Source: Octopus vulgaris
Taxonomy: Eukaryota
Reading direction: 5' to 3'
Assembly (NCBI GenBank): GCA_951406725.2
Contig: OX597827.1
Span: 3,348,001-3,412,000, forward strand
DNA: 64,000 nucleotides
The notes below the pieces were generated by a model, which was not told the DNA's origin, ran no database searches, and saw nothing but the letters and a program-made list of their open reading frames with translations. Numbering within the stretch: the stretch's first letter is position 1; every line of letters begins with the position of its first letter. This document shows positions 15,552-29,815 of this stretch, piece after piece. The translations under genes were made by a program, and so were the position numbers.

Positions 15552-15592
<41 letters not shown>

Positions 15593-15595
<3 letters not shown>

Positions 15596-15763
15596 TCATC
15601 ATCATCATCATTTAACGTCCGTTTTCCATGCTAGCACAGGTTGGACGGTTTGACTGGGGTCTGGGAAGCCAGGGGCTGAACCAGGCTCCAGTCTGATCTG
15701 ACAGTGTTTCTAAAGCTGGATGCCCTTCCTAAAGCCAACCACTCCGTGAGTGTAGTGGGTGCT
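15593..15763 (-). mobile_element. RTE LINE 3' tail (fused to a 5S rRNA fragment)
   Basis: tcatcatcatttaacgtccgttttccatgctagc...gtgtagtgggtgct, matching 30985-31157. Confidence 0.9.
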
Positions 15764-15822
15764 CGATGTTGCTTAACTTCGGTGATCGGATGAGAACTGG
15801 TGTTTTCAACGTGATATGGCCG

Positions 15823-15825
<3 letters not shown>
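15761..15825 (-). pseudogene. 5S rRNA 5' fragment (about nt 3-67)
   Basis: Minus strand TTACGGCCATATCACGTTGAAAACACCAGTTCTCATCCGATCACCGAAGTTAAGCAACATCGAGC matches the 5' half of metazoan 5S rRNA including box A; there is no intermediate element or box C. Confidence 0.9.
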
Positions 15826-15864
<39 letters not shown>

Positions 15865-15962
15865 GTAATATATATATATATATAAACGTAATATATTATC
15901 ATCATCATCATCGTTTAACGTCCGCTTTCCATGCTAGCATGGGTTGGACGGTATATATAAAC

Positions 15963-16001
<39 letters not shown>

Positions 16002-16099
16002 AACGTAATATATATATATAAACGTAATATATCATCATCATCATCATCGTTTAACGTCCGCTTTCCATGCTAGCATGGGTTGGACGGTATATATAAATG

Positions 16100-16135
<36 letters not shown>

Positions 16136-16152
16136 ATATATATATATAAACG

Positions 16153-16222
<70 letters not shown>

Positions 16223-16350
16223 GTAATATATATATATATATAATATATATATATATATAAACGTAATTATATATATATATATAAACGTAATTATATATAT
16301 ATATATATAAACGTAATTATATATATATATATATAAACGTAATATATATG

Positions 16351-16389
<39 letters not shown>

Positions 16390-29235: not shown

Positions 29236-29299
29236 ATTGTTTTTTATTTCCAATTATCACTGCAGAATATTAAAATAAATTCCAATTTTTGATTAATCA

Positions 29300-29815
29300 C
29301 ACGAAAAGCACCCAGGCCCCTCAGTAAATTGGTTGGCACAAGGAAGGGCATCCAACCATAAAACTCATGCCAAAACAGATCTTGCAGATACTAGTACCAC
29401 ACAAAAAGCACCCAGTCCACTATGTAAGGTGGTTGGCATCCGCAAGGAAGAGCATCCAGCCATAAAAACCATGCTAAAATAAATCTTACAGGTGCTGGTG
29501 CCATACACAAAGCGTGCAGTCAACACTGTAAAGGGGTTGGCACCAAGAAGGGCATCCAGCCATAAAAATCATGCCAAAACAGACCTCACAGGTGTTGTTG
29601 CTGCACAAAAGCAGCAAGGTCAATCTGTATTGTGGCTGGAATTGGGAAGAGTATCCAGCCATAGAGACCATGCCAAAACAGACAGTAAAGTCTGGTGGAA
29701 TTCTCTGAGTTGCCAGCTCCTGTCAAACCATCCAACCCATGCCAGCATAGAAAACAGAAGTTAAATGGTGACAATAGGCATTAAATAATGATGATGATGA
29801 TGATGATAATAATGA
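29300..29815 (+). mobile_element. RTE 3' UTR with about four tandem ~100-bp units followed by the (GAT)n tail
   Basis: aaaagca...ggttggca...gaagggcatccagccataaaa..catgccaaaacaga is repeated; ends ccatccaacccatgccagcatagaaaac. Confidence 0.8.

What the first reader, a model, noticed from the sequence alone, without database searches (positions are those of the whole stretch)
15593..15825. 5S rRNA-RTE chimeric retrocopy
Seen: on the minus strand about 65 nt of the 5S rRNA 5' end join directly, via a shared 3-nt gct at 15761-15763, to the last ~170 nt of the RTE 3' UTR and (TGA)n tail, with (TA)n on both sides. Known: U6/L1 and 5S/L1 chimeras arise by RT template switching in mammals, and SINE3 families have 5S heads that need box A, the intermediate element and box C. 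Inference: box C is missing, so this is probably an RTE template-switch chimera, a snapshot of how a 5S-headed SINE could originate; it would be a new SINE3-like family only if multicopy.
Basis: partly seen in the sequence, partly recalled or inferred. Interest (0 to 1): 0.7.

Follow-up and report, generated by a model that had tools for sequence, protein, structure and literature searches.

The report
One-off 5S–LINE chimeric retrocopy
A dead, single-copy piece of 5S ribosomal RNA is fused to the tail of a jumping gene, likely because the copying enzyme switched templates, and it is one of well over a hundred such fusions in this genome rather than a new mobile-element family.

Summary
In detail: 5S rRNA nt 3-67 (63/65 identical to array genes) joins through a shared AGC to the last 171 nt of an RTE-type LINE, inside (TA)n. 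The junction is single-copy in 2.8 Gb and the internal promoter is incomplete, so this is not a SINE3.

It is not a lone accident. Of 76 dispersed 5S copies picked only by their 5' end, 72 run directly into a retroelement or a second 5S. Partners are short LINE tails, whole tRNA-type SINEs, this RTE (12 cases in all searches) and a Penelope-like RT. Most carry full-length, sense 5S plus the unprocessed 3' trailer of real 5S genes, with nearly unique junctions. U6, which has no internal promoter, joins the same partners (22 of 30 copies), so repeated capture explains the pattern without amplification.

Best reading: an RT template switch during one insertion; later shortening of a full-length chimera is not excluded. 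The class is known (U6/L1, U6/L2, U6/RTE). Large-scale sense pre-5S capture was not found in my paper searches. The scan earlier noted two similar one-off 5S chimeras on other DNA.

The parts
15761..15825 (-). 5S rRNA fragment, nt 3-67, sense to the LINE tail
   Evidence: Rfam RF00001; 63/65 identical to a C4 array gene
15764..15778 (-). Box A of the 5S internal promoter, intact; intermediate element and box C absent
   Evidence: box positions recalled from Xenopus numbering
15761..15763 (-). 3-nt microhomology AGC shared by 5S nt 65-67 and the LINE 3' UTR
15611..15763 (-). Last part of the 3' UTR of an RTE-type LINE
   Evidence: about 90% identical to tails downstream of endonuclease/RT ORFs in L248, L301, L302, L304, L305
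15593..15610 (-). (TGA)6 tail of the LINE
   Evidence: sequence
15557..15593 (.). (TA)n target, 3' side of the element
   Evidence: TRF, 18.5 copies
15826..16388 (.). (TA)n-rich array on the 5' side; holds repeats of a short unit that matches 5S nt 3-7 and two tandem-duplicated 55-57 nt stubs of the same LINE tail

Best explanation
This is a single-copy fusion of 5S rRNA nt 3-67 to the 3' end of an RTE-type LINE, likely made in one insertion when the LINE reverse transcriptase switched from its own RNA to a 5S RNA. Steps: (1) the LINE protein primes at a (TA)n tract from its (TGA)n tail (inferred from the anatomy; the same family starts in TA tracts elsewhere); (2) after about 170 nt the cDNA end pairs through AGC with 5S nt 65-67 and copying goes on along 5S (junction shown, switch inferred); (3) the new 5' end joins the target, losing 5S nt 1-2 (loss shown; use of the local TTACG unit inferred); (4) without the intermediate element and box C the copy would be silent and has not multiplied (single copy shown, silence inferred). 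It belongs to a genome-wide class in which retroelement RTs likely jump onto oligo-U-ended Pol III transcripts (unprocessed 5S and U6).
For: Junction single-copy, control 0. Same orientation of both parts, and a tail that belongs to an endonuclease/RT LINE. 72 of 76 dispersed 5S heads chosen only by their 5' end run into a retroelement or a second 5S; 68 of 76 keep the 5S 3' end. 79 genome-wide joins of the 5S 3' end to one short tail motif, control 0; 70 joins to SINE starts, control 1, a few rows probably chance. Linkers match 3' trailers of real 5S genes on C4 and C5 up to their T-run and are distinct in 48 of 48 short-tail, 30 of 35 SINE-A and 7 of 7 SINE-B cases. 12 5S-RTE chimeras have junctions from inside the ORF to 133 nt downstream of the window's site. 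Two share one junction with a GTT overlap but carry different tail variants, as repeated microhomology use would give. U6 joins the same partners at the same places in 22 of 30 top copies.
Against: No target-site duplication is readable here, and across 61 chimeras only 8 show one of 8 nt or more (shuffled mean 2.7, max 8), so single-event origin is not shown by TSDs. The window copy is the only one of 12 5S-RTE chimeras with a cut 5S, and internal deletions inside 5S heads occur in other copies (L054, L093), which fits later shortening as well. A 3-nt overlap arises by chance about 5% of the time (my arithmetic). RTE membership rests on architecture, not on a tree with named elements.
Confidence: 0.6

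Rival explanations
1. A full-length pre-5S/RTE chimera of the usual kind was made first and then shortened between the two AGC words, either by an RT skip during insertion or by a later DNA deletion.
For: 11 of 12 5S-RTE chimeras and 68 of 76 dispersed heads keep the 5S 3' end; internal deletions are seen in other 5S heads; the junction has a microhomology.
Against: Needs two steps; 3'-cut 5S copies also insert on their own (L025, and L130 with a 9-nt duplication), so cut or internally primed 5S templates exist.
Confidence: 0.22
2. A 5S fragment was ligated to a cut LINE RNA before reverse transcription, as proposed for U6/L1 via RtcB.
For: Both routes give sense chimeras (PMC13174262, passages); three chimeras join at exactly the same LINE base, which could be a cut site.
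Against: Ligation gives no reason for junction overlaps, seen here and in two independent copies with one GTT overlap. Many heads join whole SINE 5' ends, which as Pol III transcripts would carry a triphosphate (established knowledge). One of the three same-site cases came from a search aimed at that site.
Confidence: 0.08
3. A tailless 5S fragment and a 5'-truncated RTE stub inserted separately into the same (TA)n tract.
For: The tract holds two more stubs of this tail. Free stubs starting at this same site are common (68 minus-strand matches). Tailless 5S pieces exist.
Against: No TA or other spacer lies between the parts, the overlap fits both parents, and tailless 5S is rare (4 of 76 heads had no partner).
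Confidence: 0.07
4. It is a member of a SINE3-like family, or an assembly error.
For: 5S-headed, RTE-tailed SINEs exist (CoeSINE5, HaSE3, SINE-1_Pmo; PMC5786205 passages). The junction was not confirmed in reads.
Against: Single copy; promoter incomplete; two private CpG-type changes in the head and about 8% or more difference from the nearest fetched tails, as an aged insertion would show.
Confidence: 0.03

Closest known systems
U6/LINE and U6/SINE template-switch chimeras of L1, L2 and RTE clades (PMC4476161; passages and section 10 read)
   Same: Small Pol III RNA in sense at the 5' end of a truncated LINE or SINE; each an independent event; reported with RTE-like elements in Anolis and with short L2 tails and a SINE in platypus. 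U6 does the same in this genome (22 of 30).
   Different: The head here is 5S; that paper has no mention of 5S rRNA in its main text and covers vertebrates only.
Human 5S/LINE-1 chimeras (PMC13174262; passages read)
   Same: 5S joined to a LINE 3' end in one insertion; often a cut 5S.
   Different: The 27 human cases are typically antisense and truncated, and far rarer than U6. Here 5S heads are sense, mostly full-length with the unprocessed trailer, number at least about 150, and the partners are non-L1 LINE tails and SINEs.
SINE3 families with RTE tails: CoeSINE5, HaSE3, SINE-1_Pmo (PMC5786205, PMC3272025; passages read)
   Same: 5S head plus RTE-derived 3' end; template switching proposed as their origin.
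   Different: Those are multicopy; HaSE3 keeps boxes A, IE and C, and CoeSINE5 and SINE-1_Pmo include RTE 5' UTR sequence. This copy is single, lacks IE and box C, and has only 3' UTR.

Membership tests
SINE3 (5S-headed SINE) | 5S-derived head | tested here: met
   Rfam RF00001 above gathering; 63/65 identity
SINE3 (5S-headed SINE) | Complete type 1 promoter: box A, intermediate element, box C | tested here: not met
   only box A kept (positions recalled)
SINE3 (5S-headed SINE) | Many copies sharing one head-tail junction | tested here: not met
   1 match with up to 3 mismatches in 2.8 Gb
SINE3 (5S-headed SINE) | LINE-derived 3' tail | tested here: met
SINE3 (5S-headed SINE) | Pol III transcription from the locus | not testable with these tools
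   no raw RNA reads of the organism were offered
Small-RNA/LINE chimeric retrocopy | Small RNA directly 5' of a truncated LINE 3' end, same orientation | tested here: met
Small-RNA/LINE chimeric retrocopy | Junctions differ between copies (independent events) | tested here: met
   12 5S-RTE cases with different joins except one pair; 48 of 48 short-tail linkers distinct
Small-RNA/LINE chimeric retrocopy | One target-site duplication around both parts | tested here: inconclusive
   flanks are (TA)n; 8 of 61 in the class against a shuffled mean of 2.7
Small-RNA/LINE chimeric retrocopy | Orthologous empty site lacking both parts | tested here: inconclusive
   no listed contig bridges the site in 4 runs; no related genome is held
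RTE clade (parent LINE) | AP endonuclease and RT in one ORF | tested here: met
   868-aa frame in L303 with RVT_1 and an endonuclease-like start read by eye; Exo_endo_phos_2 in the matching part of L304
RTE clade (parent LINE) | No ORF1, short 5' UTR | tested here: inconclusive
   no complete 5' end found in 6 copies; most of the 120 listed homologues are 900-1100 aa proteins on 3-4.5 kb contigs, which leaves little room for an ORF1
RTE clade (parent LINE) | Short tandem-repeat tail instead of poly(A) | tested here: met
   (TGA)n; TGA tail also in HaRTE1.1 (PMC3272025 passage)
RTE clade (parent LINE) | RT phylogeny inside the RTE clade | not tested
   no named reference came back; resemblance to Rex3/Expander is recalled

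The most novel reading that the evidence does not exclude
This genome mass-produces proto-SINE3 elements: four kinds of reverse transcription jump onto unprocessed 5S transcripts about as readily as onto U6, giving hundreds of promoter-complete 5S heads on LINE-recognised tails, and one type (a 5S variant with a GTCACAC trailer fused to a whole tRNA-type SINE) has itself begun to amplify as a dimeric SINE3-like family. The capture part is well supported; the amplification is only not excluded (AU p 0.07 and 0.23) and is opposed by varied linkers, T-runs in them and no head-body covariation.
Probability: 0.12. Interest if true: 0.65.

Novelty: new variant of a known kind. Interest (0 to 1): 0.38.

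Why it matters
The locus alone is ordinary retrotransposon debris. The class around it is more useful. The captured molecule keeps the gene-specific 3' trailer, which points to nascent oligo-U-ended Pol III transcripts as the preferred acceptor and records which 5S gene types were expressed in the germ line. At least about 150 copies have the parts list of a SINE3 yet show little sign of having multiplied. That makes a standing question testable: why 5S-headed SINEs are rare although the fusions that should found them are common.

Tried and rejected
Single hot spot in the RTE tail: first suggested by three joins at one base, rejected when further cases fell at -196, +21, +113 to +116, +133 and inside the ORF. 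Free truncations are also common at a second site (211 against 68 minus-strand matches, not normalised for copy number). One of 4 rows of the site-directed search was not 5S (L092).

Reads: contigs of 4 runs laid on the flank and junction gave no listed piece bridging the junction, and repeats swamped the tables. This says nothing for or against the junction or an empty allele.

Folding the chimera gave no unusual stability (z 0.93), so no new structured RNA is claimed.

TSD scan of 61 chimeras was weak.

Tree of 130 SINE-A bodies of 165 nt: 26 label changes against 31.6 shuffled (3 of 500 as low), so mostly scattered with some clustering; poorly resolved, and one origin was not rejected. One chimeric row was mislabelled free and corrected; two or three others with cut heads stayed labelled free.

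The ESM Atlas gave no answer. A supplement search for the published octopus RTE sequence found nothing; 4 files were not searched, so identity with RTE-2_OV is open. A Pfam match to Pertussis_S2S3 is below cut-off and chance.

Full report
Observation. On the minus strand, window 15825-15761 matches 5S rRNA (Rfam RF00001, 50.4 bits, gathering 38). A search of the window's own genome (2.8 Gb, 227 contigs) found real 5S genes in a tandem array on C4. Against one of them the fragment is nt 3-67 with two changes, both CG to CA. The last three bases, AGC, are also the bases that precede the retained part of the LINE tail in intact copies, so they fit both parents. The remaining 168 nt end in (TGA)6, and both flanks are (TA)n. 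Box A is intact; the intermediate element and box C are replaced by LINE sequence (positions recalled).

The tail. Longer copies of this tail lie downstream of RT coding sequence. L303 has an 868-codon frame with RVT_1, and the matching start in L304 scores as an endonuclease; the tails of L301, L302, L304 and L305 are 91-92% identical to the window's. Most of the 120 listed homologues are endonuclease-RT proteins of about 1000 aa on 3-4.5 kb contigs. This is RTE architecture. No tree with named elements was made and no complete 5' end was found, so the clade name is likely, not shown.

Copy number. The 31-nt junction occurs once with up to 3 mismatches, control 0. With an incomplete promoter and one copy it fails the SINE3 test.

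The class. I picked dispersed 5S copies by their 5' end alone and read what follows. Of 76 heads, 30 run into a short LINE/SINE tail of about 50 nt, 26 into one tRNA-type SINE (22 at its very start), 8 and 3 into two other SINEs, 3 into the RTE tail, 1 into a second 5S and 1 into a Penelope-like frame; 4 have no partner. Two of the 76 are near-duplicates. 68 keep the 5S 3' end. Genome-wide patterns give 79 joins to the short tail (control 0) and 70 to SINE starts (control 1, a few rows probably chance); exact patterns make these lower bounds. The bases between 5S and partner match 3' trailers of real genes on C4 and C5 up to their T-run, so the captured RNA was likely unprocessed 5S. Linkers are distinct in 48 of 48, 30 of 35 and 7 of 7 cases, and each trailer type pairs with several partners. 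The partners are very common (about 175,000 SINE-A heads and 205,000 RTE tails, extrapolated from 29 and 34 in 464 kb), so chimeras are a small minority of their copies, the pattern that PMC4494074 (passages) expects of independent switches.

5S-RTE cases. Twelve were found, the window's included. Relative to the window's join they lie inside the ORF (L203), at -196, +4 (three), +21 (two), +113 to +116 (three) and +133. The two at +21 share a junction with a GTT overlap but differ in tail variant and are the only two in the genome. The window copy is the only one with a cut 5S.

Control. U6 has no internal promoter (established knowledge), so U6-headed copies cannot amplify as SINEs. Of the 30 best U6 loci fetched (of 48 scored), 22 run into the same partners at the same places: 10 short tails, 9 SINEs, 3 RTE tails; 8 do not, five of them in one array. 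Repeated capture therefore suffices to make the 5S pattern.

Against a fully independent origin. For SINE-A chimeras a tree needs 26 label changes, fewer than the shuffled 31.6, and one clade is not rejected (AU p 0.069 for 37 rows, 0.23 for 27). Copies with the same linker are no more alike than others, and head and body identity do not covary (r -0.05, p 0.83, 26 copies). 16 of 35 linkers hold four or more T, which would stop Pol III. TSDs give little support either way, and reads were uninformative.

Mechanism. Shown: the parts, their order, the overlap, single copy, the class, the trailers and the U6 parallel. Inferred: priming at (TA)n, the switch at the cDNA level, and silence. The main rival is shortening of a full-length chimera between the two AGC words; RNA ligation and adjacent insertion are weaker.

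Literature. U6 chimeras with L1, L2, RTE-like LINEs and SINEs are described in vertebrates (PMC4476161, passages and section 10). Human 5S/L1 chimeras are few, typically antisense and truncated (PMC13174262, passages). 5S-headed RTE-tailed SINEs exist (PMC5786205 and PMC3272025, passages). A repeat annotation of Octopus vulgaris lists one 5S SINE family of 7 recent insertions covering 42 kb and has no mention of chimeras or rRNA (PMC13282606, passages); whether that entry touches this class I could not tell, and its supplements were not read. PMC4758252 and PMC9115989 (passages) and PMC6007223 (abstract) added background only. Eight searches listed no paper on sense, trailer-bearing 5S chimeras in a cephalopod; the library lacks most subscription journals and Repbase Reports. 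Two earlier scan notes describe one-off 5S chimeras in other genomes (unchecked); none was on file for this genome or sequence.

Verdict. The locus is a real, dead, single-copy chimeric retrocopy of a known kind. The wider pattern, large-scale sense capture of unprocessed 5S alongside U6 by several RT types, is a new variant. Interest 0.38.

Noticed in passing
L140 / L249 (G000:C25:5354403-5355703): Two 5S copies with trailers in tandem, fused to a long frame that reads like a Penelope-type RT with a GIY-YIG-like end (recalled; no Pfam match): likely a double jump by a different RT class.
   Followed up: partly
dispersed 5S copies: An extra G precedes the 5S start in 9 of 18 complete TA-flanked heads (counted rows) and 3 of 9 in a second set, but in 0 of 33 array genes; possibly an untemplated base added by the RT.
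   Followed up: partly
L248:3473-4900 and L249:4205-5491: In two chimeras an ATG inside the 5S sequence is in frame with the captured RT coding sequence (476 and 429 codons); probably chance.
   Followed up: no
L071, L116: One short tail that often carries 5S or U6 heads is the end of a LINE whose last coding part resembles CR1-group elements (recalled). None of 38 related tail motifs in 464 kb of unselected DNA was a free short tail.
   Followed up: partly
window 15830-16148: 136-nt tandem duplication inside the TA array carrying two stubs of the same LINE tail; all 7 copies in the window of a 13-nt unit that overlaps the 5S start lie in 15860-16334.
   Followed up: partly
G000:C4:35.2-35.34 Mb, C5:16.47-16.50 Mb, C1:139.42 Mb: 5S gene arrays with several trailer types on C4 and C5, and a U6 array on C1. 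No source gene was seen for the GTCACAC trailer among 30 of 60 matches fetched.
   Followed up: partly
L072:541-903, L248: The parent LINE carries a PHD-like finger next to its RT domain, shared by many homologues.
   Followed up: no
L130 (G000:C16:42509250-42510550): Tailless 5S nt 1-44 flanked by a 9-nt duplication.
   Followed up: no
window 29298-29682: Tandem array of about 100-nt units derived from the same LINE 3' UTR motif.
   Followed up: no
L250:4816-7999: Long frames resembling a Helitron replication protein (recalled), inserted in an RTE copy.
   Followed up: no
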